From UHGV virus genome UHGV-0213395: DNA of 43,313 nt; one strand, given 5' to 3'. Shown piece by piece: positions 1-43,255 of the stretch. The position numbers were made by a program, and so were the translations under genes. Every line of letters starts with the position of its first letter. Within the stretch, counting starts at the first letter, position 1. Origin of the DNA: a virus. The notes beneath the pieces were generated by a model, which saw only the letters and a program-made list of their open reading frames with translations, was not told where the DNA came from and did not search any database.

Positions 1-6
1 ATAAGC

Positions 7-1137
7 ATGGCCCGGAAGAAAATAACCGACGAACAGTTACAGGAAGAATTGAACGCCGGTATGAAGAATATCGACATCGCCCGTAAATACGGCATCTCAG
101 ACCGAGTTATTCGTATCCGTAAAGCGAAGCTGGCTAAGAAAGGTGTAGGCCACGGGCGCGACGTCAGCCACCTTGTGCCAGATGGCTACAAGATTAAAGG
201 GACGTCGTCTCTGGTAGACGAGTTCGGCAATACTAAGTTGCAATGGGTTAAGACAGACACCGACGCTGAACGTCAGGTCGAGTTGATGAAAGCCGTGATT
301 GAAGGCATGAAGTCAGAGATTACGCCAGTTGCGCCGGCTAAAGCGACTCGAGCCAAACGCGACGACAAGCTACTCAATCTTTACACGGTATCTGATTTCC
401 ATCTCGGTATGCTTGCCTGGGCCGACGAGAGCGGCGACGACTGGGATATAAAGATTGCGGAAGACCTGTTCTCTCGTTGGTTCGACGCGGCGTTTCAGAA
501 AGCACCGGATGCAGGAACAGGAGTTATTAACCTGCTGGGTGATTTCGCGCACTTCGATAGTCTGGATGCCGTTACACCTGAGTCGCGTCACGTGTTGGAC
601 GCAGACACTCGCTACCAGAAACTCGTCCGCTACATGATTCGTATGGTACGCCGTGTTGTAGATATGGCACTGGTTAAACATAAAAATGTTCGCTTGCTTA
701 TCGTACAGGGGAACCATGACCCTGTAGGCTCTGTATGGCTGGCTGAAATGTTCACAGTTTTATATTCGAACGACAGCCGAGTGATTGTCGATACGTCGCC
801 GGATGTTTACAAGATGGTGCAACACGGAAAAACGACGTTGTTCTTTCACCACGGGCATAAGGCGCGATTCGATGCTATCGAACCGGTTATGATTGCCAAA
901 TTCCGCAAAGCGTTCGGTGAGAGTGTCTATAGCTACGCCCACGTAGGCCACCTGCACCACCAGAAGATTGTAGAAAGCCGTAACATGATTGTTGAGCAAC
1001 ACCGCACCTTAGCGGCTAAAGACGCCTATGCCTCCCGCGGCGGGTGGATGTCAGGCCGTAGTGCAAATGTAATTACTTATAGCGCCGAATATGGCGAGGT
1101 CGCACGTTTAACTATTTCACCGGAGATGCTGGGATGA
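7..1137 (+). CDS. HTH domain fused to calcineurin-like metallophosphoesterase (376 aa)
   Basis: ATG at 7 preceded by GAGGA at window end 43309-43313. N-terminal basic HTH-like segment (ARKYGISDRVIRIRKAKL); phosphoesterase motifs DFH, GDFAHFD, GNHD, HHGH, GHLHH. Antisense to flanking tail genes. Confidence 0.7.
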   Translation: MARKKITDEQLQEELNAGMKNIDIARKYGISDRVIRIRKAKLAKKGVGHGRDVSHLVPDGYKIKGTSSLVDEFGNTKLQWVKTDTDAERQVELMKAVIEGMKSEITPVAPAKATRAKRDDKLLNLYTVSDFHLGMLAWADESGDDWDIKIAEDLFSRWFDAAFQKAPDAGTGVINLLGDFAHFDSLDAVTPESRHVLDADTRYQKLVRYMIRMVRRVVDMALVKHKNVRLLIVQGNHDPVGSVWLAEMFTVLYSNDSRVIVDTSPDVYKMVQHGKTTLFFHHGHKARFDAIEPVMIAKFRKAFGESVYSYAHVGHLHHQKIVESRNMIVEQHRTLAAKDAYASRGGWMSGRSANVITYSAEYGEVARLTISPEMLG

Positions 1138-1364
1138 CTTCAAAATACAACCGAACAATGACAAACACTCACGGCAGCACTATGACCGTAGACGTTTACG
1201 ATGTTCTCCGTGCCTTCGACATCCGTGACCCCGCACTACAGCACGCATTGAAGAAGTTATTGTGCATGGGTCTTCGCGGGCATAAGGACACCGGAACCGA
1301 CTTAGCAGAAGCAATTGAAAGTCTGGAGAAGTTACGGGAGTATCGAAGTAATATTGATGAGTGA
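1134..1364 (+). CDS. hypothetical protein (76 aa), coupled to upstream phosphoesterase gene
   Basis: ATGA start/stop overlap with preceding ORF; followed by terminator hairpin at 1369-1388. Confidence 0.55.
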   Translation: MTSKYNRTMTNTHGSTMTVDVYDVLRAFDIRDPALQHALKKLLCMGLRGHKDTGTDLAEAIESLEKLREYRSNIDE

Positions 1365-1368
1365 GAAA

Positions 1369-1388
1369 AAGGCCCCGAAAGGGGCCTT
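1369..1388. terminator. bidirectional rho-independent terminator (AAGGCCCC-GAAA-GGGGCCTT)
   Basis: Perfect 8-bp GC-rich stem between convergent genes; A-run upstream gives a U-run on the minus strand, AGTTTTA downstream on plus. Confidence 0.7.
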
Positions 1389-1392
1389 AGTT

Positions 1393-2565
1393 TTATGCGT
1401 AGGTGATACGTTGAATTACGATAGACGACTGGTACTGATTGCCGGTAGCCTGGCCTTCAATGGACTGAGTGATTGACTCAGGCCCACCAATCTCAGGTGT
1501 AACCGCCGTAAGCTCTGCACGTTTCAAACTGAAAGACATAGCCCCGTTTACCCCTGCCAGAATAGAGTTAATCTCTACCTGCTGCTCGTTGATAAACTTC
1601 TGAATCATCGCCATGTCGTACAGCTTGCCAGAGATAGAGAATGTGTTAGCTGCGCGTCCACGTTCGACGAACGCCACGCTACTGTTACCGAGTTCGAACT
1701 GCGCGGAAGCTCCGTTGTCGTTGGTGATGGTGAGAGTATCGCAACGCAACGGCGTGGAGCCATCGAACACCGACACATCTACCGACGAGAACGGCTCATC
1801 GGTGAACGTAACCTGAGAGAAATCAGAGCCAGACGGCGGCGCGGTAAGAATCTCCTGACTCAGGCCGATGAACGGGAAGCTGCCGGTGACCATGGCGTTA
1901 ACCGCCTGCTCTACGGTAAAGCCAGAGATTTCCACACCTTTGGTCAGCATGTACGCGTACGGGTTACCACACTGGCCCTTGAACCACGTCAGGATGGAGA
2001 ACGTCTTACACGCGTTACCGGTTTCCAGCTTGTCGCCAGTTTTTGCGTCAGTGGTTACTGTCTCTGCTGTCAGCGTGTGCTGAATACCTGCGCCCGTAAC
2101 TACCAGAGCGGAAACCGCGGTCACGATAAACGGTTTTGCGTTGTCGCCGGTTAAGCCGGTGAACGCAATAAGGTCGCCAACTTCTACACCGTCAGTAATG
2201 AAGCTACCGGCAGCGCGGGTGAATGTTTTACCTGCTGGGGCGACCGTAATTTTGGCGCCAGTAATCTCTACCCCAGCTTGCCACGTAGAAGTCATCGCTC
2301 CCGCAAGGAAATCATCCTGGCTACGAGAGCTAAGTTCGATGGCATACTCCCCGCTAACCTGCTTGTTACCGGTTCGGATGGATGTAGTTTCACGGCTGCC
2401 GTCCAGTTCGTTGGAAGTCAGTGCATCGCGGGTTACAGCGGGAACGCCGCCCGTGTTACGCAACGGCGACCATACCGGGTTAGTCGGTGTTACGCCAGGG
2501 GTAGTTTCCACCACATAGAATTGCGCGGTATTCGCGCCCTTAAAAGGAGTTGTAGCCATATTCAC
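1393..2565 (-). CDS. major tail (tube) protein candidate (390 aa)
   Basis: Last large gene of the head-neck series, in the position of the tube protein ahead of chaperone and tape measure genes; Thr/Gly/Val-rich. Positional call. Confidence 0.5.
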   Translation of the reverse strand: MNMATTPFKGANTAQFYVVETTPGVTPTNPVWSPLRNTGGVPAVTRDALTSNELDGSRETTSIRTGNKQVSGEYAIELSSRSQDDFLAGAMTSTWQAGVEITGAKITVAPAGKTFTRAAGSFITDGVEVGDLIAFTGLTGDNAKPFIVTAVSALVVTGAGIQHTLTAETVTTDAKTGDKLETGNACKTFSILTWFKGQCGNPYAYMLTKGVEISGFTVEQAVNAMVTGSFPFIGLSQEILTAPPSGSDFSQVTFTDEPFSSVDVSVFDGSTPLRCDTLTITNDNGASAQFELGNSSVAFVERGRAANTFSISGKLYDMAMIQKFINEQQVEINSILAGVNGAMSFSLKRAELTAVTPEIGGPESITQSIEGQATGNQYQSSIVIQRITYA

Positions 2566-24759: not shown

Positions 24760-25103
24760 CGGATAAATGGTGGCTTAATCTGCGTAGTGGTGACAAGGTT
24801 TACACCGTCGGTGACCGCAGAAAGAACAGCGGCGTAGCTACTGTGCTACAAAACGGCAAAAAGTACATCCACATTGCGCATGAAGCTCGAGCACTCCGCG
24901 TGAATAAATCGTCTGGAAGACTTGAGGATTACCCGAAAACATTAATATACAAAAGCGAAAAGCATCACATGGCCACTGTTGACGCAAGACGTAAGTTCGC
25001 AGGAATGCTGCAACAGTTAAGCGACTTACATCGTGATGATTCTTTCATCCCCACAGAAGAACAGCTACAGGCATTAAACTTGTATTTGGAGAGTTTACGA
25101 TGA
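24756..25103 (+). CDS. hypothetical protein (115 aa)
   Basis: Start moved to ATG 24756 (ATGA overlap with upstream stop). Confidence 0.55.
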   Translation: MTDKWWLNLRSGDKVYTVGDRRKNSGVATVLQNGKKYIHIAHEARALRVNKSSGRLEDYPKTLIYKSEKHHMATVDARRKFAGMLQQLSDLHRDDSFIPTEEQLQALNLYLESLR

Positions 25104-26380
25104 TTCTAAAAGAACGCGGCGGCAATAACGACGTACACGCCTTACTGTCACCGTCAGGTGCTAAAAAGTGGTTAACCTGCGCCGCATCACTGGCCTGTGA
25201 AAAGGATATTCCTGACACGTCCGGTAAAGCTGCGATATTAGGCACGGCAATGCACACCATAGCCGAGATACACCTTAACCAGTACATCAAAGGCACTGCG
25301 TTGCCATTAGAACGTGAAGTCGGCGCTTATGTACTGGACGAAGGAAAAGGCCAGATTAAGGCGTTAATCAGCCCTATGAAAGGCGCGGTACTGATTACGG
25401 CTGACATGATTGAACAGGTTCGCAAGTACACCGACTACTGCAAAGCGATTATCGATGTAGCGACTTACGCCAAGCTGGAAATGCGTGTCAATCTTACTGA
25501 GGTATTGCATCCGGGCTACAAAGTACCTGCTGAGAGTGAAGAAGGTAAGGAGGATGATTTAGAGACATTCGGGACAGCCGACTTAGTGGCGGTTATAGAA
25601 GGCTTTACAGGTGAAAGTAACTCCGCGATGCTCATTATCGGCGACCTTAAAACAGGACGGCATCGCGTCGAAGCGAAAGAAAACAAGCAGCTTATGCTTT
25701 ACGCTCTCGGTGTTTATCGTCGACTCAAGAGACGTTATAACATAACAACCGTTCGTCTGGTCATCTTCCAGCCTTACGCTGGGGGCGCGACAGAGTGGGA
25801 CATCTCGGTTGAAGGACTGGAACTGTTCGCTAAGTTCGCACAGAAACGCGCGCTGTTAGCGCTTGATGCGTATTTCCGTGGCAAGAAGAACCTGAAAGCG
25901 TCGGACTTCAAGCCATCGGTAGATGGTTGTCAGTGGTGCCGGTTCTCTGAACAATGCGCTGCGCGTACAAAGACGGTTAATTCTGTACTGGCGGAAGAAC
26001 TGGAAGACGACTTTGTGCTGGAACTGACGCCGGAGCAACTCGTAGCTGAGTATGAGAAGTTGCCGCTGTTGCGCCAGCACATCGACAAGGTTGAGAAAGC
26101 TATGGCGGCCGCGTTGCATTCAGGTAAGAAAGTTCCTGGTTACAAGTTGGTTGAAGGCCGCCCAGGTAATCGTGCATGGAAAGACGCGGAGAAAGTAACA
26201 GAACTCTACGGCGACAAGCTGACTAAAGAAGTGCTCATGTCACCTACCGAAGCTGTTAAAGTCATACCGGAAGAAGAACTGAAAGACTTCATTACCCGTA
26301 AGCCAGGCGCACCATGTGTCGCAACGGCAGACGACAAACGTCCTGAGTGGAATCAGGTAACAGAGGAGGATTTGGAATGA
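25100..26380 (+). CDS. PD-(D/E)XK nuclease with Cys cluster (RecB/Cas4-like recombination exonuclease, 426 aa)
   Basis: GTADLV ... IGDLKTG nuclease motifs; cysteines at WLTCAASLAC and CQWCRFSEQC; C-terminus ...QVTEEDLE. Confidence 0.65.
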   Translation: MILKERGGNNDVHALLSPSGAKKWLTCAASLACEKDIPDTSGKAAILGTAMHTIAEIHLNQYIKGTALPLEREVGAYVLDEGKGQIKALISPMKGAVLITADMIEQVRKYTDYCKAIIDVATYAKLEMRVNLTEVLHPGYKVPAESEEGKEDDLETFGTADLVAVIEGFTGESNSAMLIIGDLKTGRHRVEAKENKQLMLYALGVYRRLKRRYNITTVRLVIFQPYAGGATEWDISVEGLELFAKFAQKRALLALDAYFRGKKNLKASDFKPSVDGCQWCRFSEQCAARTKTVNSVLAEELEDDFVLELTPEQLVAEYEKLPLLRQHIDKVEKAMAAALHSGKKVPGYKLVEGRPGNRAWKDAEKVTELYGDKLTKEVLMSPTEAVKVIPEEELKDFITRKPGAPCVATADDKRPEWNQVTEEDLE

Positions 26381-38280: not shown

Positions 38281-39681
38281 TTAACCGTCCACATTAAAAT
38301 CAATACGAGTGATGTACTTGCTACCCCACGCGGAATCAGCCTGCGGGATGGTTGCGTAATCATCTGCCGCCAGAACGTTTACCACAGAGCCGTCGGAATA
38401 GGTAATGTCGATGCTTGTCGCGCCGTTCATTGCCACTTTTGCTGATGCCGTTGGACGAGTTACCGGTGACTCCTCGGTCACTATCGGGGAGGAGGCAAAC
38501 TCTGAAGGCTCCATCTGGATTAGGGCTATAATGAACCCACTGACATCATCCCCTGTGAAGGTGAGGGAGTTAGACGGAGACAACATGTTTATCTGCGAAT
38601 AAATCAATCCGCCGGAGTCGTTAGTGTCCGCTGACATTGAAACGTGATACCACCCACCACCAAGATTGCTTACGAACGACCTTGAGGTGTCGCCTGATAT
38701 CAAATAGCCGGAGGCTAAGTCAACATAGGCATACTGGAAATTATCTAAAGCGGCTCGGTTGCCGATGACTACCGCTGCCGACTGGTACTCATCTGCTTTT
38801 ATAATAGCACTAATAGAGTATCTTGTTTCTTGTTCTGGGGCCTCTGCCTTGTTTATATAATGGTTACCTGATACCGACGTTGCGGTTAATTTAGCAGCAT
38901 AAGTTTCTTGGAATAACGCCAAAGAACTCGCCGTGGTTGTTGTTCTGGTACGTGAAAATGATGTAGATAGTAAGTTGTTAGAATGTTCTACCACATTGGT
39001 AGCAGCCTTTTCCGGCGGCACACGCCCAACTGCAGTTCCGTCAATAAACGTAAGAGGCCATTCATTAGTGGCGGACTGCACAAGATTGCCGTTGCGGTTG
39101 ATGTAATAAACCTGCGGCCCTTCATACACAATGCGGCTATCAAGAGTCGACGCCAGAAGGTTAATCGGCGGATATCCGGCAGGGCCTTCATTACTCCAGA
39201 TTCGTGGAAACGTTGATTGCGCGGTTCCGTAGGCTTTAAGGAAACACCCCAGCCCGTCACCATAGCAACCATACAAATCCGGCAGATTATTGACAAGACA
39301 CTGGTTCTCGAGGTCCTGGAACGGGGATTTCTCGGCGGTTGCCGTGAAAGTAATCGTCCAGTTAATGCCGTCTTCGGTGGACTCCGCGATGGTGGACGTG
39401 ATGGTTACCTGATAATCTTCAATACCCATGCCGAAGTCATGCGCCATCCAGAAACTTGACGCGCCGCCGTCCACTTTCTCAAGGAACGACAGGAACGCCT
39501 GTCGCCCTAGTGCAGATGTAATCAGAGTTACGCTTATTGGGAACACATCATAATACGTGTCACGGCCTTGACGCACTCCGCCACCGGCTAAATCTACACT
39601 CCAGACGTTGTTGCGTCTGGTCATTGAGTAGCCTTTCGATACCACCGGCTTAAGGCTACGTGGGAAATATAAGTCGCTCAT
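38281..39681 (-). CDS. tail tip protein (distal tail protein candidate, 466 aa)
   Basis: First gene after tape measure, 1-nt overlap with its stop. Positional call. Confidence 0.5.
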   Translation of the reverse strand: MSDLYFPRSLKPVVSKGYSMTRRNNVWSVDLAGGGVRQGRDTYYDVFPISVTLITSALGRQAFLSFLEKVDGGASSFWMAHDFGMGIEDYQVTITSTIAESTEDGINWTITFTATAEKSPFQDLENQCLVNNLPDLYGCYGDGLGCFLKAYGTAQSTFPRIWSNEGPAGYPPINLLASTLDSRIVYEGPQVYYINRNGNLVQSATNEWPLTFIDGTAVGRVPPEKAATNVVEHSNNLLSTSFSRTRTTTTASSLALFQETYAAKLTATSVSGNHYINKAEAPEQETRYSISAIIKADEYQSAAVVIGNRAALDNFQYAYVDLASGYLISGDTSRSFVSNLGGGWYHVSMSADTNDSGGLIYSQINMLSPSNSLTFTGDDVSGFIIALIQMEPSEFASSPIVTEESPVTRPTASAKVAMNGATSIDITYSDGSVVNVLAADDYATIPQADSAWGSKYITRIDFNVDG

Positions 39682-42008
39682 TATTTAAACCCCGGCGCAT
39701 TTCTTGTGGCCTTGCGGGCCTTGCTAATCTTACTGTTACTGTTCTGCAAAGAGGCAGCCACTTGCTCCTCGATGATGATACGCAAACGGCCTTCATCATC
39801 TTGCTCAGTGGATACGTTGCCGATTTGAGAACTCGTGTTGTTTACGATAGTAACATTAGACGGTCCGGAAGAAGACCCGTTTTGCCCCATAATTTCTTTC
39901 ATCTGCTGTGCGGTGCGTACACGTGACGCACCAGCGGGCATGATAACTTCTGGTTTACCGCGTTCGGCGATGGTTGAAGCCTGCCCCGCGGATAACTGTC
40001 CGCCCTGTTCACGTGCGGACCTGATAGCGGAAATCTGCGCCATACCCGCCCCAACGGCAGCAGCGGCAGCTACAGGAGCCAGGAACGGGCCAACTACAGG
40101 GATAGCCGCTGTTGACTTATACGCCTCAATAGCCGCGGTGTACGTGGCTATAGTGGCCTGCACGATAGCGAATGCCTTGTACGCGCCAGAAGCCTCGCCC
40201 AAAGCCGAACCGATGTTTGAGGCCATGTTACCGAAGGCCGTTGCCGTTGCGTCGGCACGCTTCGTGGCGTACTGCTCGTTGATGGCATTAAGCGCAGCCT
40301 GATACTGCTTCTCACTAATCAAACCCTGCTCGCGGTACTTATCTGCTACCGACAGTTTCTGCTGTTCCTGGATGTCGAGAAGCTCAAGCTCAGCGGCGTT
40401 CTGACCCATAATCTGGGCCATGAAGTCGTCGCCTTTCTGCTGCTTTTCCTGCTGCTCTTTTCTTTTCTTATCCAGTTCTTCCTGTCTGGCCTGCTCGGCG
40501 GTGAGCATAATTTGAGTTTTGGCGTTTTCGTACTGCTGCTGGCTTATCGTTCCGGCGCGGTTGAACTCTTCAAGTTTCGCCAGTTTCTGTTCTTCTGCCG
40601 CTGTGATACGTGAAATTTCGTCTCCGGTTGTGCGGTCGACAGTAGCCAGGAAATCTTCCGCCGCTTTTTTCTGACGTTGTGCCGCTGTTTCTTCGCGTTT
40701 GGCTTGTGCCGCCAGACGTTCCTCGTTCGATTTAGCCTCGCGGTCGGCCTTCTCTTTCTCGGTCTTGTCAATGCGGGCGATGTCTTGCTGCGCTTCCGCG
40801 TCGCGGGCCGCATTATACGCGGCTATCTGTTCTTTGGTGACGGCTTCACGTTTAGCGAACGCCTGTTTATCAAGTTCAGCTTGCGCCCGGATACGCTCAC
40901 GGTCGCTTAAGATGGCGATTTGCTGGTTTTTGACGATAGCTTCGTTCTGTTCCTGGAATCTCTGCGTGGTTGAGTTGACGTTGCGACCAAGATTCTTTTG
41001 GGCCTCTGCCGCCGCGTTTGCTGACTTCTCCGCGTTCTCCAGTGCCGTGGCGTTCTTGTTGGCGTTGTCCGTCAGGCGGATAAGTTCCGGGTTCAACTGT
41101 TTTGTGTTACCGAGCCAGTCGGTAAACACATCGGCGATGCGACGGGCATTCTCGGCGGTTGGCTCTTTGTTAAACGCACTCTGCGCCGCTATCATCTCCA
41201 GCGCCTGGTCACGGTTAACTCCGAACTTACTGCTAAGCTCCGCGATATTCTGCGCCAGCATGTTGACGCCTACGATGTTGCCCTCGTAAGTGCCGCCGAG
41301 TTTTTCTAATGTGTCGCCTACATCTGCGCCCTTAGAGACTAATGCATCATACTGGCTAATCGCCGATGCCGTGGAGGCTTTCCACGTTTCCCATGATTCG
41401 GCATCTTCACGAACAGCTTTAGCGGTTTGCTGCGCGATAAGGTCCGCGTTAGCCTTAGCCAGAGCAAGCTGAGTCTCCGCTGCTTCTCTGCTGATTTGGG
41501 TAAGCTGGATAAGGCCGTCTGTCAGCTCGAGAGAGCCAGATGCCGTTTGCTGGAAAGTATCTTTTAACTGTTTCTGCGCGGCTTCGAGGTCTTTTGAACT
41601 GCCTTCTGCTTCGGTTAGTGATTTATACAGTACTCCACCAACAGCCGACGCTAGTGCGATTACGGCCCCAAGCACAGCACCACCAGGGCCGAAAGCACCC
41701 GCAAGTTGCGAACCTTGCTGGCCTATTGCCACAAATGCTGACGTACCGGATTGCAGCTGGACAACCATGTCCTGCACCTGGAAGCCTACCTGCCCGGCAG
41801 CGTTACGGAACTTAGCGAAACCGTCAGAAGCCGCTTTAGACGTAGCGGAGTTTACTTTATTAACGTCCGGAGTCAGCTTGTTTACCGCGGTATCAGCGCG
41901 GTCTGCAGACGACGCCATAGCGTCAAGCTGTTTGGCAGCTACGTCAGCACCTTCTGTTTTTACTCTGGCGATTAGGGAAGCCGTATCAGCCATCTTCTCT
42001 GCCCTCAA
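39681..42008 (-). CDS. tail tape measure protein (775 aa)
   Basis: Long Ala/Gln/Glu/Lys-rich helical protein with a Gly/Ala-rich hydrophobic C-terminal region; preceded by chaperone ORF pair. Confidence 0.8.
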   Translation of the reverse strand: MRAEKMADTASLIARVKTEGADVAAKQLDAMASSADRADTAVNKLTPDVNKVNSATSKAASDGFAKFRNAAGQVGFQVQDMVVQLQSGTSAFVAIGQQGSQLAGAFGPGGAVLGAVIALASAVGGVLYKSLTEAEGSSKDLEAAQKQLKDTFQQTASGSLELTDGLIQLTQISREAAETQLALAKANADLIAQQTAKAVREDAESWETWKASTASAISQYDALVSKGADVGDTLEKLGGTYEGNIVGVNMLAQNIAELSSKFGVNRDQALEMIAAQSAFNKEPTAENARRIADVFTDWLGNTKQLNPELIRLTDNANKNATALENAEKSANAAAEAQKNLGRNVNSTTQRFQEQNEAIVKNQQIAILSDRERIRAQAELDKQAFAKREAVTKEQIAAYNAARDAEAQQDIARIDKTEKEKADREAKSNEERLAAQAKREETAAQRQKKAAEDFLATVDRTTGDEISRITAAEEQKLAKLEEFNRAGTISQQQYENAKTQIMLTAEQARQEELDKKRKEQQEKQQKGDDFMAQIMGQNAAELELLDIQEQQKLSVADKYREQGLISEKQYQAALNAINEQYATKRADATATAFGNMASNIGSALGEASGAYKAFAIVQATIATYTAAIEAYKSTAAIPVVGPFLAPVAAAAAVGAGMAQISAIRSAREQGGQLSAGQASTIAERGKPEVIMPAGASRVRTAQQMKEIMGQNGSSSGPSNVTIVNNTSSQIGNVSTEQDDEGRLRIIIEEQVAASLQNSNSKISKARKATRNAPGFK

Positions 42009-42347
42009 ATATTCCGTCTAAGCCCATGATAACCTCGGCTTCGAACAAACTTATGCCGTAACCGGCGACATCACGAAACGCTACCAAATCTTGCCATTTG
42101 AGCGCATCGCGCGGGATTATAACGATAGTATCATCTGTTTCGCGCTGTAGGAATTTAATGGCACGGTATTTCTCGAACACGTCGATAAGAGAAACGGGGC
42201 ATTCTGGCCCCGTCGCTTCTTTCATCTGCGGTTCTTTAATCACGCCCATTGCAATCAAAGCCGCCTGGTGGCCCGCCGCGATGTCGTCGAATTGCTTACG
42301 TTTGTGGCGGTCGACAAAGCACCATTGCGCAAATTCATACAGCGCTT
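41986..42347 (-). CDS. tail assembly chaperone T-frame extension (expressed by -1 frameshift from the G frame)
   Basis: -1 frame is open from the G stop through to an overlap with the tape measure start; the track start is only a TTG. Confidence 0.45.
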
Positions 42348-42764
42348 TTACTTTTCCGAGAGTTTCTCACGGCTATCGGTGTGATGCTTAACTACGGCCT
42401 CTGCCAACCCACTGTACTGGTCGAACAGGTTAGCAAGCGCCTCTTTGCTGAATGGTTCGTCGAATGACCAACCGGTGACGATTTCCACGGCAAGCTGCTT
42501 GTTCAGGTCCATCACCCGCCAGCCCTTCTCATCATTATAGCGCGCCCAGTTATTCAGCGCCTCGCACTCTTTATCTAATGGCGCAAGTTCTTCCGTAAGG
42601 CGTCGAATTGCCGTTGTGTAGGCACGGCCCGCACGAACACCAGCGTCACAATCGGGGCCGATGACCTGCAACCATTCACCGGAATCTTTACCACTGGGCA
42701 GAAGGATAGGCATTTTAGTACCGGCGGCGTGGCGGTCGGCAAAATAGAAATCAGAAAGTTTCAT
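42348..42764 (-). CDS. tail assembly chaperone (G-like, 138 aa)
   Basis: Immediately upstream of tape measure; ends ...SEK with GGAAAAG heptamer at the stop. Confidence 0.55.
   Translation of the reverse strand: MKLSDFYFADRHAAGTKMPILLPSGKDSGEWLQVIGPDCDAGVRAGRAYTTAIRRLTEELAPLDKECEALNNWARYNDEKGWRVMDLNKQLAVEIVTGWSFDEPFSKEALANLFDQYSGLAEAVVKHHTDSREKLSEK
42351..42357 (-). other. candidate -1 programmed frameshift site GGAAAAG
   Basis: Heptamer is rc of plus CTTTTCC, occupying the last two G-frame codons before TAA; the -1 frame is open downstream. Confidence 0.4.
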
Positions 42765-42871
42765 TCTTTAGTCCTTTGGTTAAGAGGTTACTGGTTATGG
42801 TTAATGCGCCAGGCGGGAACCACCCGCTTTTCGTGTGCGACACTAGGCGCAAACTTATTCTAGCACACTAC

Positions 42872-42900
42872 TTGCACACCCCAATATAATAGGGTACTAT
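42872..42900 (+). promoter_or_regulatory. conserved early promoter, copy 2 (TTGCAC-N17-TACTAT)
   Basis: Identical over ~33 bp to the copy at 8681-8709; GAGG SD and ATG 42929 downstream. Confidence 0.55.
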
Positions 42901-42928
42901 TCACATGTAACTTACTGAGGAAATAATT

Positions 42929-43255
42929 ATGCGTAAATTAGTACTAGCTCTGGGTTTTATGTCTTTTGCTACTTTTGGGGCCCCGTGCGAACAGGTATTT
43001 AGTGAATCTGTTCTTATGACTTCTGGTGTGCTTGATAAAGCCGACCCTACTATTGTAAAGGCATTTAAGGACTCCACAGTCCGTGAATGCGAGGCCGCCG
43101 TAGATGTCGGTAAATCGGGCCTACCTCCGCAAGCCGTAACATACACGGTAATACGTTCGGTAGAGAAAACCGGAGACGCGTTTTACAGCCTTCTGACAGC
43201 CACCCGTCTGCAAATGGTAATGACTGGATGGGCAATAGGCGCAGAAAGTAAATAG
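42929..43255 (+). CDS. small secreted/periplasmic protein (108 aa, signal peptide)
   Basis: MRKLVLALGFMSFATFGA then PCEQ: cleavable signal peptide without lipobox; two Cys in the mature part; lower GC than flanks. Confidence 0.6.
   Translation: MRKLVLALGFMSFATFGAPCEQVFSESVLMTSGVLDKADPTIVKAFKDSTVRECEAAVDVGKSGLPPQAVTYTVIRSVEKTGDAFYSLLTATRLQMVMTGWAIGAESK

What the first reader, a model, noticed from the sequence alone, without database searches (positions are those of the whole stretch)
1..1392. Antisense accessory cassette between major tail and chaperone genes encodes an HTH-metallophosphoesterase fusion
Three plus-strand genes (42929..43255, 7..1137, 1134..1364) interrupt the minus-strand tail operon between the major tail gene and the chaperone/tape-measure genes, with their own promoter (42872-42900) and terminator (1369-1388). 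The middle gene fuses an HTH-like N-terminus to a calcineurin-like metallophosphoesterase (DFH, GDFAHFD, GNHD, GHLHH). A phosphoesterase expressed from an early promoter inside a structural module is not a virion-assembly function. Candidate roles are nuclease, protein phosphatase, or degradation of a nucleotide second messenger used by host defence (counter-defence). The latter is a hypothesis only.
Basis: partly seen in the sequence, partly recalled or inferred. Interest (0 to 1): 0.75.

Follow-up and report, generated by a model that had tools for sequence, protein, structure and literature searches.

The report
Conserved phage HTH-metallophosphoesterase gene, likely nuclease
The three-gene antisense block is real, but its central gene is an already catalogued, never-tested phage enzyme (a DNA-binding domain fused to a nuclease-like metallophosphoesterase, also present in phage T1) that every relative of this phage carries, so it is a core DNA-metabolism gene and not an optional counter-defence add-on.

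Summary
The window is a complete, circularly permuted Kagunavirus genome, about 99% identical over this region to BASEL phages Bas70/72/75/76. All reported features exist at the stated coordinates.

- **The enzyme.** The 376-aa protein has an N-terminal three-helix HTH, a conserved beta-hairpin and helix, and a metallophosphoesterase (MPE) domain. All five metal-binding motifs are invariant across the family.
- **The family.** It belongs to phrog_704, annotated "DNA repair exonuclease". Homologs occur in 2,037 of 50,697 phage records, including T1 ORF ST16 at 44% identity.
- **Not accessory.** In 21 of 21 Guernseyvirinae loci the MPE, its promoter and a bidirectional terminator are fixed. The MPE is more conserved than the flanking tail genes. 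Only the small genes on either side are swapped.
- **Neighbours elsewhere.** They are DNA or nucleotide-metabolism genes, repeatedly a PNKP-type HAD phosphatase plus a P-loop kinase.

Best reading: a DNA-tethered nuclease of phage DNA metabolism. The exact role is unproven and the second-messenger idea has no support.

Aside: the divergent leader of the tail-chaperone operon carries an int-alpA RNA motif.

The parts
42789..42853 (-). int-alpA-type structured RNA motif in the leader of the tail assembly chaperone / tape measure operon. It marks the fixed left border of the cassette region.
   Evidence: Rfam RF02996 scores 35.8 bits, equal to the gathering score, E 1e-5, over the full model 1-71. 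In 13 related sequences 95.6% of cells are paired and 3 pairs show compensatory changes. The G-U pairs only make sense on the minus strand.
42872..42900 (+). Sigma-70-like promoter of the cassette: -35 TTGCAC (42872-42877), 17-nt spacer, -10 TACTAT (42895-42900).
   Evidence: Read from the sequence. Both hexamers and the spacing are conserved in 21 Guernseyvirinae loci. The generic scan did not call it.
42883..42911 (-). Candidate divergent promoter for the chaperone / tape measure operon (GTTACA-17-TATATT). An alternative reading is TTGGGG-16-TAGAAT at 42884-42857.
   Evidence: Scanner hit at 9 of 12. The alternative is read from the sequence. Neither is verified.
42929..43255 (+). First cassette gene: 108-aa protein with a signal-peptide-like N-terminus (MRKLVLALGFMSFATFGA...). 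It occupies an exchangeable slot.
   Evidence: ORF. phrog_14165, function unknown, E 5.5e-55. In other relatives the slot holds a 59-72 aa protein; the EM1 representative matches phrog_1039 'immunity to superinfection'.
7..1137 (+). HTH-metallophosphoesterase, 376 aa (phrog_704; T1 ST16 homolog).
28..138 (+). N-terminal three-helix HTH (aa 8-44).
   Evidence: AF2 helices 8-16, 21-28 and 32-44. Weak GerE and FixJ hits. Homologs carry HTH_1, HTH_50, HTH_8, Sigma70_r4, MarR or HTH_23 at the same place, sometimes in two copies.
187..315 (+). Conserved beta-hairpin plus helix linker module (aa 61-103; KG.S...QWVK with W80 and K82 invariant in A2, >=90% conserved in A1).
   Evidence: AF2 strands 61-70 and 76-85, helix 87-103. 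Conservation.
361..1134 (+). Metallophosphoesterase catalytic domain (aa 119-376). Motifs: I SDFHLG, II GDFAHFD, III GNHD, IV HHGH, V GHLHH. It also holds an invariant but low-confidence loop at aa 186-199 (VTPxSxHxLDADxR).
   Evidence: Invariant columns. Pfam Metallophos_2 1.7e-4 and Metallophos 8e-3, both below the gathering score. Fold matches.
1134..1364 (+). Third cassette gene: 76-aa protein, translationally coupled to the MPE (ATGA overlap). Function unknown. It occupies an exchangeable slot.
   Evidence: ORF. It matches the C-terminal parts of phrog_2452, phrog_17613 and others. Its homologs are all 61-127 aa with no Pfam domain. In relatives the slot holds a HAD-PNKP phosphatase plus a P-loop kinase, an HNH endonuclease or other genes.
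1369..1388 (.). Probable bidirectional intrinsic terminator shared by the cassette (+) and the tail tube gene (-).
   Evidence: Scanner hit: 8-bp stem with 6 GC pairs and a T run. The hairpin, with an A run upstream and a T run downstream, is conserved in 21 of 21 loci.

Best explanation
The middle gene encodes a catalytically competent binuclear metallophosphoesterase of the nuclease-like branch of the superfamily (closest folds: Mre11/SbcD and the PolD DP1 exonuclease). An N-terminal helix-turn-helix holds it on DNA.

It belongs to a large, catalogued but experimentally uncharacterised phage family (phrog_704; T1 ORF ST16). In Guernseyvirinae it is a fixed core gene. It is transcribed antisense to the tail genes from its own sigma-70-type promoter and ends at a terminator shared with the tail tube gene.

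The most likely mechanism is metal-dependent hydrolysis of DNA phosphodiester bonds, without a Rad50/SbcC partner, as part of phage DNA metabolism. The role I favour is breakdown of host or damaged DNA and clean-up of DNA ends, feeding nucleotide salvage. Processing of replication or recombination intermediates is almost as likely.

Shown here: the domain architecture, invariance of the metal ligands, core-gene status and the synteny.

Inferred: DNA as substrate, nuclease chemistry, the biological role and the timing of expression.

The two flanking small genes are exchangeable accessory genes riding in the same transcription unit.
For: - A full MPE motif set is invariant across 52 sequences at 32-49% identity. 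This includes the Mre11-like D-x-H-L-G and G-D-x-x-H.
- The AF2 model has mean pLDDT 83, with HTH, hairpin and MPE modules.
- In a profile search of all PDB sequences, the only MPE-domain chains to surface were Mre11/SbcD and P. putida 'Nuclease MPE'. These hits are weak, E 0.35-2.
- BFVD relatives are labelled 'DNA polymerase II small subunit' or 'SbcD' by their depositors.
- An HTH is always present, but its subtype changes and it is sometimes duplicated. DNA binding is therefore the conserved feature.
- Synteny with DNA or nucleotide-metabolism genes:
  - T1 and Webervirus: helicase, VRR-NUC and Dam upstream.
  - phiEa100: exonuclease, endonuclease VII, MPE, HAD-PNKP phosphatase, a further ORF that clusters with the P-loop kinases, then DNA ligase.
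  - Environmental phages: a D5-type primase upstream and a Q-like antiterminator downstream.
- MPE followed by a HAD-PNKP phosphatase and a P-loop kinase recurs in Kagunavirus EM1, Webervirus and phiEa100.
- Core-gene status is shown.
- Precedent: the mycobacteriophage A10ZJ24 gp48 MPE degrades DNA in vitro and host DNA in vivo, and is needed for phage DNA replication in M. tuberculosis (PMC12287305).
Against: - Foldseek ranks Rv0805 and a COG0622 protein slightly above Mre11.
- Profile-to-sequence hhalign does not separate SbcD (E 0.0099) from CpdA (E 0.0086).
- There is no Mre11 capping domain and no Rad50/SbcC-like gene in the genome.
- The phage already has a PD-(D/E)XK exonuclease next to a gp2.5-like annealing protein for recombination.
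- No experiment on any family member was found in the searchable literature.
- It is not explained how phage DNA would be spared by a host-DNA nuclease.
Confidence: 0.5

Rival explanations
1. Replication or recombination intermediate processing. A stand-alone SbcD/Mre11-like or DP1-like exo/endonuclease trims hairpins, blocked ends or flaps on phage DNA so that concatemer formation and headful packaging can proceed. Host DNA is not its target.
For: - Best structural matches are Mre11, SbcD and DP1.
- In phiEa100 it is adjacent to endonuclease VII, an exonuclease and a ligase. In environmental phages it is adjacent to primase or helicase genes.
- It lies directly upstream of the small terminase gene in Dhillonvirus and upstream of the terminase region in a B. 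pseudomallei prophage.
- From my own knowledge, not checked here: the Bxb1 gp47 MPE is required for phage DNA replication.
Against: - There is no Rad50/SbcC partner and no capping domain.
- A separate recombination exonuclease is already present.
- This reading does not explain the recurrent link to a HAD phosphatase and a nucleotide-type kinase.
Confidence: 0.22
2. End-healing enzyme. The MPE acts as a 3'-phosphatase or 2',3'-cyclic phosphodiesterase on broken DNA or RNA. It would work in one pathway with the PNKP-type HAD phosphatase and P-loop kinase encoded next to it in other phages, to repair damage inflicted by host nucleases.
For: - MPE followed by a HAD_PNKP phosphatase (PF25109, 5e-19) and a P-loop kinase recurs in three unrelated phage groups. 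In phiEa100 a ligase follows.
- From established knowledge: bacterial Pnkp uses an MPE domain for end healing.
Against: - Most family members, including this window, lack the HAD and kinase genes.
- No ligase is annotated in the Kagunavirus genome.
- An HTH is not expected for an RNA-repair enzyme.
Confidence: 0.12
3. One reading: a counter-defence phosphodiesterase that destroys nucleotide second messengers (CBASS, Pycsar, Thoeris or type III CRISPR signals) or otherwise manipulates nucleotide pools.
For: - A calcineurin-like enzyme paired with a HAD phosphatase acts on nucleotides in the PUA-Cal-HAD defence system (bioRxiv 10.64898/2026.01.15.699771).
- The gene sits in a locus that also carries exchangeable small accessory genes.
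Against: - It is a core gene with a fixed position and is more conserved than its structural neighbours. Known anti-defence genes are usually patchy.
- The obligatory DNA-binding HTH has no role in this model.
- There are no hits in PADLOC or NCBIfam.
- Its neighbours are DNA-metabolism genes.
- Kagunavirus phages show no unusual robustness against the defences tested in the BASEL study (PMC11990801).
Confidence: 0.08
4. Primarily a transcription factor or a protein phosphatase. The HTH regulates phage or host genes, and the MPE domain is regulatory or dephosphorylates proteins, like lambda NinI.
For: - Some GenBank records call it a 'transcriptional regulator'.
- The N-terminus weakly matches phrog_836 'late transcriptional activator' (8e-4).
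- It lies just upstream of a Q-like antiterminator in 7 environmental loci, the position NinI has in lambda.
Against: - The PPP signature (GDxVDRG, GNHE) is absent. PPP enzymes are the most distant MPE class structurally.
- A B. pseudomallei prophage carries both a NinI-like Metallophos gene and this HTH-MPE, so they are not equivalent.
- Strict invariance of all the metal ligands argues for catalysis as the core function.
Confidence: 0.08

Closest known systems
Mre11 / SbcD nucleases (including phage T4 gp47 and T5 D13)
   Different: No C-terminal capping domain and no Rad50/SbcC ATPase partner in the genome. It has an N-terminal HTH plus beta-hairpin module instead. Sequence similarity is not significant (E 0.35-2; hhalign E 0.0099).
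PolD small subunit DP1 and the B-subunits of eukaryotic replicative polymerases
   Different: No OB fold and no PolD catalytic subunit. The phage polymerase is annotated only as 'DNA polymerase', with no evidence of association.
Mycobacteriophage cluster A metallophosphoesterases (A10ZJ24 gp48, Bxb1 gp47)
   Same: A phage-encoded stand-alone MPE in the DNA-metabolism region. gp48 degrades DNA in vitro and host DNA in vivo, and is needed for phage DNA replication (PMC12287305). This was the longest hhalign alignment among the references tried (motifs III-V, 88 columns, E 0.004).
   Different: About 255 aa with no HTH or hairpin module. Similarity is only at superfamily level (probability 8%). 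It is a different PHROG and Pfam-level family.
Pseudomonas putida Nuclease MPE (PDB 6NVO)
   Different: Much lower structural score than Mre11/SbcD. It has no HTH and lies in a bacterial repair gene cluster rather than a phage.
Class III cyclic-nucleotide phosphodiesterases (Rv0805, CpdA) and GpdQ
   Different: They have no DNA-binding domain and act on small-molecule substrates. hhalign to CpdA is no better than to SbcD.
Lambda NinI (lambda phosphatase, PPP family)
   Same: A phage MPE encoded just before the late regulator Q. Some family members occupy that position.

Membership tests
Calcineurin-like metallophosphoesterase superfamily | Five motifs providing the binuclear metal ligands: DxH, GD, GNH[DE], H, GHxH | tested here: met
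   D130, H132, G178, D179, N236, H237, H282, G314, H315 and H317 are invariant in 52 diverse homologs. Pfam Metallophos and Metallophos_2 hits are below the gathering score in the window protein. One homolog exceeds the Metallophos cut-off (25.1 vs 21.5 bits); two others score below it.
Calcineurin-like metallophosphoesterase superfamily | Beta-sandwich MPE fold | tested here: met
phrog_704 (annotated 'DNA repair exonuclease'; T1 ORF ST16 family) | Full-length match to the family profile | tested here: met
   E 1.1e-162, residues 4-375 on profile positions 2-389 of 390. 44% identity over the full length to T1 ST16.
Mre11/SbcD nucleases | Mre11-type catalytic motifs, including the motif II and motif III histidines | tested here: met
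   SDFHLG, GDFAHFD (H182 invariant in A2, >=90% in A1) and GNHD (H237 invariant). The comparison with the Mre11 consensus is from my own knowledge.
Mre11/SbcD nucleases | Capping domain C-terminal to the MPE core | tested here: not met
   The protein ends with the MPE core at residue 376. AF2 shows no extra C-terminal domain.
Mre11/SbcD nucleases | Partner Rad50/SbcC ATPase encoded alongside | tested here: not met
   No such gene among the 83 annotated genes of the near-identical Bas70 genome, nor next to homologs in T1, Webervirus, phiEa100 and other phages.
Mre11/SbcD nucleases | Significant sequence or profile similarity | tested here: inconclusive
Mre11/SbcD nucleases | Metal-dependent nuclease activity on DNA | not testable with these tools
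   Requires biochemistry.
PPP protein phosphatases (lambda NinI type) | GDxVDRG and GNHE motifs | tested here: not met
Class III cyclic-nucleotide phosphodiesterases (CpdA/Rv0805) | Specific similarity beyond the shared MPE motifs | tested here: inconclusive
Known anti-defence or defence protein families | Match to a curated defence-related model | tested here: not met
   No PADLOC hit at E <= 1 for any of the three cassette proteins. PADLOC models defence proteins rather than anti-defence proteins, so this is a weak test.
Mycobacteriophage cluster A MPE (Bxb1 gp47 / A10ZJ24 gp48) | Family-level homology | tested here: not met
   hhalign probability 8%, E 0.004, covering motifs III-V only. Different length and no HTH.
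int-alpA RNA (Rfam RF02996), for the element at 42789-42853 | Score at or above Rfam's gathering score over the full model | tested here: met
   35.8 bits against a gathering score of 35.8, model positions 1-71 of 71, E 1e-5. This is exactly at threshold.
int-alpA RNA (Rfam RF02996), for the element at 42789-42853 | Structure maintained by covariation in relatives | tested here: met
   95.6% of cells paired against 87.3% in shuffles. 3 pairs (13 cells) have changes on both sides. Slid controls give 31-61% paired. The sample is small and the sequences are related, so support is moderate.

The most novel reading that the evidence does not exclude
The HTH-MPE family (phrog_704, T1 ORF ST16), present in about 4% of sequenced phage genomes, may be a so-far unrecognised general host-takeover or counter-defence nuclease of small siphoviruses. 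It would be DNA-tethered and would destroy the host chromosome, and with it expression of defence genes, as shown for the unrelated mycobacteriophage gp48 MPE. It would also feed dNMP salvage. A less likely version is a DNA-bound phosphodiesterase that removes immune nucleotide signals. My evidence does not exclude either version.
Probability: 0.2. Interest if true: 0.6.

Novelty: new member of a known kind. Interest (0 to 1): 0.3.

Why it matters
The gene is not a new discovery. Near-identical copies are deposited and annotated in BASEL phages Bas70-76, and the family is catalogued as phrog_704.

What matters is that a family found in about 2,000 phage genomes carries a purely inferred label ('DNA repair exonuclease') and, as far as I could find, has never been tested. 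It includes the classical phage T1 and widely used therapeutic or model siphoviruses (Kagunavirus, Jerseyvirus, Webervirus, Dhillonvirus).

Knowing whether it degrades host DNA, processes replication intermediates or does something else would fill a gap in the basic biology of these phages. It would also be relevant for genome-minimisation and engineering work on small siphoviruses.

The analysis also corrects the idea that the locus is an accessory island. Only the two small flanking slots behave that way. The first holds secreted or membrane proteins, one type matching a PHROG labelled 'immunity to superinfection'. The last holds varied DNA and nucleotide-metabolism genes.

Tried and rejected
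- **Second MPE in the phage.** The other 'exonuclease' (window 25100-26377) is a PD-(D/E)XK, Cas4-like enzyme with a C-terminal cysteine cluster, not an MPE paralog.
- **The 76-aa protein as a DUF3310 / T7 gp1.7-type domain**, as one GenBank record suggests. Rejected: no Pfam hit, no BLASTP or hhalign similarity, and its PHROG hits do not overlap those of DUF3310 or gp1.7. A homolog search found only 61-127 aa proteins without domains.
- **Curated libraries.** NCBIfam and PADLOC gave nothing useful for the three proteins.
- **Sequence searches of the PDB.** A single-sequence search gave no meaningful hit. The profile search gave only weak hits.
- **hhalign of the family profile against single reference sequences** (SbcD, CpdA, NinI, Bxb1 gp47, a prophage NinI-like protein). 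It cannot discriminate subfamilies. A first run with a wrong option was meaningless.
- **The search for related loci with the divergent alignment A1** failed because no stretch was conserved enough. The closer alignment A2 worked.
The BFVD search returned only unannotated relatives.
- **Literature.** Nothing on function was found for Kagunavirus, Guernseyvirinae or Drexlerviridae. No T1 host-DNA-degradation gene mapping was found. There were no escape-mutant links to defence systems. One search was wasted on loose terms.
- **My first reading of the promoter** (TTGCAC-7 nt-TATAAT) was wrong.
Full report
**What the window is.** The 43,313-bp window is a complete, circularly permuted genome of a Kagunavirus (Guernseyvirinae) coliphage. 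Bases 1-1400 are 99.4% identical to BASEL phages Bas70, 72, 75 and 76. Bas70 is colinear with the window across the window ends: Bas70 13827 corresponds to window 2, and 13830 to window 43313. Treating 42929..43255, 7..1137 and 1134..1364 as one contiguous block is therefore legitimate.

**Checking the observation.** The three plus-strand ORFs exist exactly as described.
- They lie between the minus-strand tail tube gene (1393..2565; Phage_tube_2, 8e-38) and the tail assembly chaperone genes (42348..42764, 41986..42258) and tape measure gene (39681..42008).
- The 28 bases between the 76-aa ORF and the tube gene hold a strong hairpin, AAGGCCCC-GAAA-GGGGCCTT, followed by a T run. The hairpin is conserved in 21 of 21 related loci. 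It has an A run upstream and a T run downstream, so it probably terminates both convergent units.
The generic scanner missed it because the -35 hexamer matches only 3 of 6. Both hexamers and the spacing are conserved in 21 loci, and read TTGCAT-17-TATTAT in the loci at about 85% MPE identity, which I take to be Jerseyvirus. I first misread it as a 7-nt spacer to an internal TATAAT.
- Whether it is an 'early' promoter cannot be told from sequence. The divergent promoter candidates for the tail operon are also sigma-70-like.

**The protein.** The 376-aa product matches phrog_704 ('DNA repair exonuclease') end to end (E 1e-162). It matches Pfam Metallophos and Metallophos_2 only below their gathering scores, and shows a faint GerE-type HTH.
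- It has 3818 close homologs. A full search of 1.84 billion representatives gave 4563 clusters at E <= 1e-3 and 1128 at E <= 1e-30. Nearly all are 370-420 aa and align over the full length.
- In an alignment of 52 members at 32-49% identity, D130, H132, G134, G178, D179, N236, H237, H282, G314, H315 and H317 are invariant. This is the complete metal-binding set. The motifs read SDFHLG, GDFxHxD, GNHD, HHGH and GHxHH.
- AlphaFold2 on a 62-sequence alignment gives mean pLDDT 83. The model has a three-helix HTH (8-44), a long beta-hairpin plus helix (61-103; W80 and K82 invariant in A2, >=90% conserved in A1) and the MPE core (119-376).
- One loop (186-199, VTPxSxHxLDADxR) is strongly conserved yet modelled with low confidence. 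This suggests a substrate or partner-binding element.
- The N-terminal HTH varies in subtype between members (LysR-type HTH_1, HTH_50, Fis HTH_8, sigma-70 region 4, MarR, HTH_23) and is sometimes duplicated. What is conserved is DNA binding as such.

**Which kind of metallophosphoesterase.**
- Foldseek against the PDB gives only generic MPE matches: Rv0805, COG0622, Mre11, GpdQ, Vps29 and LpxH, at E about 1e-7 to 1e-5.
- A profile search of all PDB sequences brought up, for the MPE domain, only Mre11/SbcD and Nuclease MPE chains, and weakly (E 0.35-2).
- hhalign of the family profile against single references does not discriminate. SbcD gives 0.0099, CpdA 0.0086 and Bxb1 gp47 0.0043 (with the longest alignment). 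Lambda NinI gives 0.1 and a prophage NinI-like protein 0.5.
- In sum, a PPP-type protein phosphatase is disfavoured (motifs tested and not met). The nuclease branch is favoured but not proven. A small-molecule phosphodiesterase is not excluded by fold.
- The protein fails two defining features of Mre11/SbcD: it has no capping domain and no Rad50/SbcC partner. I do not file it as a member of that family, only as working most like it.

**Accessory or core.**
- DNA-level searches find the tail tube gene in 115 records: 101 Escherichia, 11 Kagunavirus, 2 Raoultella and 1 Shigella. The MPE gene is found in 104, 11, 2 and 1 records under those same name categories, plus 123 Salmonella phages whose tube genes are too diverged to match.
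- In all 21 loci that contain the chaperone, MPE and tube genes together, the order and orientation are the same. MPE identity (78-99%) exceeds that of the chaperone (46-100%) and the tube (71-99%).
- The distance from the chaperone start to the MPE start varies from 396 to 619 bp. The distance from the MPE end to the tube gene varies from 262 to 1078 bp, because the small flanking genes differ.
- Upstream slot: either the 108-aa signal-peptide protein of this window (phrog_14165) or a 59-72 aa protein whose EM1 representative matches phrog_1039, 'immunity to superinfection'.
- Downstream slot: the 76-aa protein of this window, or a 162-aa protein plus a 184-aa P-loop kinase, or HNH endonucleases and others.
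- The MPE with its promoter region and terminator is therefore an ancestral fixed feature of the subfamily. Only the two small slots behave as accessory.

**The family elsewhere.** tblastn finds it in 2,037 of 50,697 phage records.
- Guernseyvirinae: position as in this window.
- Dhillonvirus: after the lysis genes and directly upstream of the small terminase gene.
- Drexlerviridae, including T1 itself: ORF ST16, 44% identical over the full length. It sits in a short unit ended by a terminator, downstream of the helicase, VRR-NUC and Dam genes and upstream of the lysis genes.
- phiEa100, a T7-like podovirus: the order is exonuclease, endonuclease VII, MPE, '162-aa polynucleotide kinase', a 192-aa protein, DNA ligase.
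- Also Rhodobacter, Vibrio, Roseobacter and Campylobacter phages.
- A B. pseudomallei prophage carries a NinI-like Metallophos gene as well.
- In environmental phages at about 50% identity, the gene after it is a Q-like antiterminator in 7 loci. A D5-type primase can precede it.
- The commonest downstream neighbour cluster (14 loci, MPE identity 40-95%) is annotated 'polynucleotide kinase'. It is in fact only the HAD phosphatase domain of PNKP (PF25109, 5e-19). In 11 loci a P-loop kinase follows it (phrog_139, 'dNMP kinase').
- The context is consistently DNA or nucleotide metabolism, never virion assembly.

**Mechanism.** I commit to a DNA-tethered, metal-dependent phosphodiesterase (nuclease) acting in phage DNA metabolism, with confidence about 0.5.
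- Shown: architecture, invariant catalytic residues, core status and synteny.
- Inferred: DNA as substrate, nuclease chemistry, role and timing.
- The recurrent link with a 3'-phosphatase-type HAD enzyme and a nucleotide-type kinase fits DNA breakdown and end clean-up feeding salvage.
- So does the precedent of mycobacteriophage A10ZJ24 gp48. That stand-alone MPE degrades DNA in vitro and host DNA in vivo, and is needed for phage DNA replication in M. tuberculosis (PMC12287305).
- Processing of replication or recombination intermediates is nearly as likely.
I keep it at about 0.08.
- I found no experimental work on any member of this family.

**The other two genes.**
- The 108-aa protein has a signal-peptide-like N-terminus and no known function. 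Its slot alternates with a small protein family whose EM1 representative matches a PHROG labelled 'immunity to superinfection'. This suggests an envelope-directed accessory function (inference).
- The 76-aa protein is translationally coupled to the MPE (ATGA overlap), as is the HAD phosphatase that replaces it in EM1.
- Its family has a conserved core, KY...VDVYDVLxAF...PAxQHALKKxLCxGLRGHKD...DLxEAI, but no detectable relation to DUF3310, T7 gp1.7 or any Pfam domain.

**Side observation.** The most conserved part of the divergent intergenic region matches Rfam int-alpA RNA (RF02996) on the minus strand.
- The match is at window 42789-42853. It covers the full model and scores exactly the gathering score (35.8 bits, E 1e-5).
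- It lies between the candidate promoters of the tail chaperone operon and the chaperone start codon.
- In 13 related sequences the three-helix structure is 95.6% paired, with compensatory changes at three pairs. The G-U pairs would be A-C mismatches on the plus strand.
- It is thus probably a 5'-leader element, or a small RNA, of the chaperone / tape measure transcription unit. Its function is unknown.

**Verdict.** It is wrong on 'accessory' and unsupported on counter-defence. The gene is already deposited and catalogued, so novelty is low. The open point is the untested function of a very widespread phage enzyme family. Interest 0.3.

Noticed in passing
window 42789-42853 (minus strand): Match to Rfam int-alpA RNA (RF02996) at exactly the gathering score (35.8 bits, full model). 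It lies in the leader of the tail assembly chaperone / tape measure operon. It is conserved across Kagunavirus and Jerseyvirus-like loci, with compensatory base changes and strand-specific G-U pairs.
   Followed up: partly
window 1-43313: The window is a whole, circularly permuted Kagunavirus genome, colinear with BASEL phage Bas70 (PQ850619) across the window ends.
   Followed up: yes
L005 4128-5170; L003 7160-8226; L006 6169-7244: The 161-165 aa proteins annotated 'polynucleotide kinase' next to the MPE belong to one neighbour cluster. Its representative contains only the HAD phosphatase domain of PNKP (PF25109), and the EM1 member matches the phosphatase part of PNK PHROGs. A separate P-loop kinase gene follows. 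The trio MPE, HAD phosphatase, kinase recurs in Kagunavirus EM1, Webervirus GH-K3 and the T7-like phiEa100.
   Followed up: partly
window 42929-43255 and the same slot in L005, L010-L015, L018 and others: The first cassette slot holds either a 108-aa signal-peptide protein (phrog_14165) or a 59-72 aa protein whose EM1 representative matches phrog_1039 'immunity to superinfection'. This looks like a hot spot for envelope-directed accessory genes.
   Followed up: partly
window 25100-26377 (plus strand): The second 'exonuclease' of the phage is a PD-(D/E)XK, Cas4-like protein with a C-terminal cysteine cluster. In Bas70 it lies next to a gp2.5-like ssDNA-binding / annealing protein. It is the likely recombination module and is unrelated to the MPE.
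   Followed up: partly
window 562-603 (aa 186-199 of the MPE): The loop VTPxSxHxLDADxR is almost invariant across the family, yet it is the least confident part of the AF2 model (pLDDT below 50). It is a candidate substrate or partner-binding lid.
   Followed up: no
L089 2241-2966 and 8001-9170 (B. pseudomallei prophage): One lambdoid prophage encodes both a NinI-like PPP-type Metallophos protein (241 aa) and an HTH-MPE (389 aa) upstream of its terminase genes. The two phage MPE types are therefore not redundant.
   Followed up: no
L093 5876-6788 (Bxb1 gp46/gp47): In the RefSeq record of Bxb1, the label 'recombination directionality factor' is on gp46 and gp47 is labelled metallophosphoesterase. 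To my knowledge the RDF is gp47, the MPE, so the record's labels look shifted. This was not verified here.
   Followed up: no
L094 10823-12008 (phage T1 ST16 and its terminator): In T1 the homolog also ends a short unit of small genes and is directly followed by an annotated rho-independent terminator. This resembles the cassette layout in the window.
   Followed up: no
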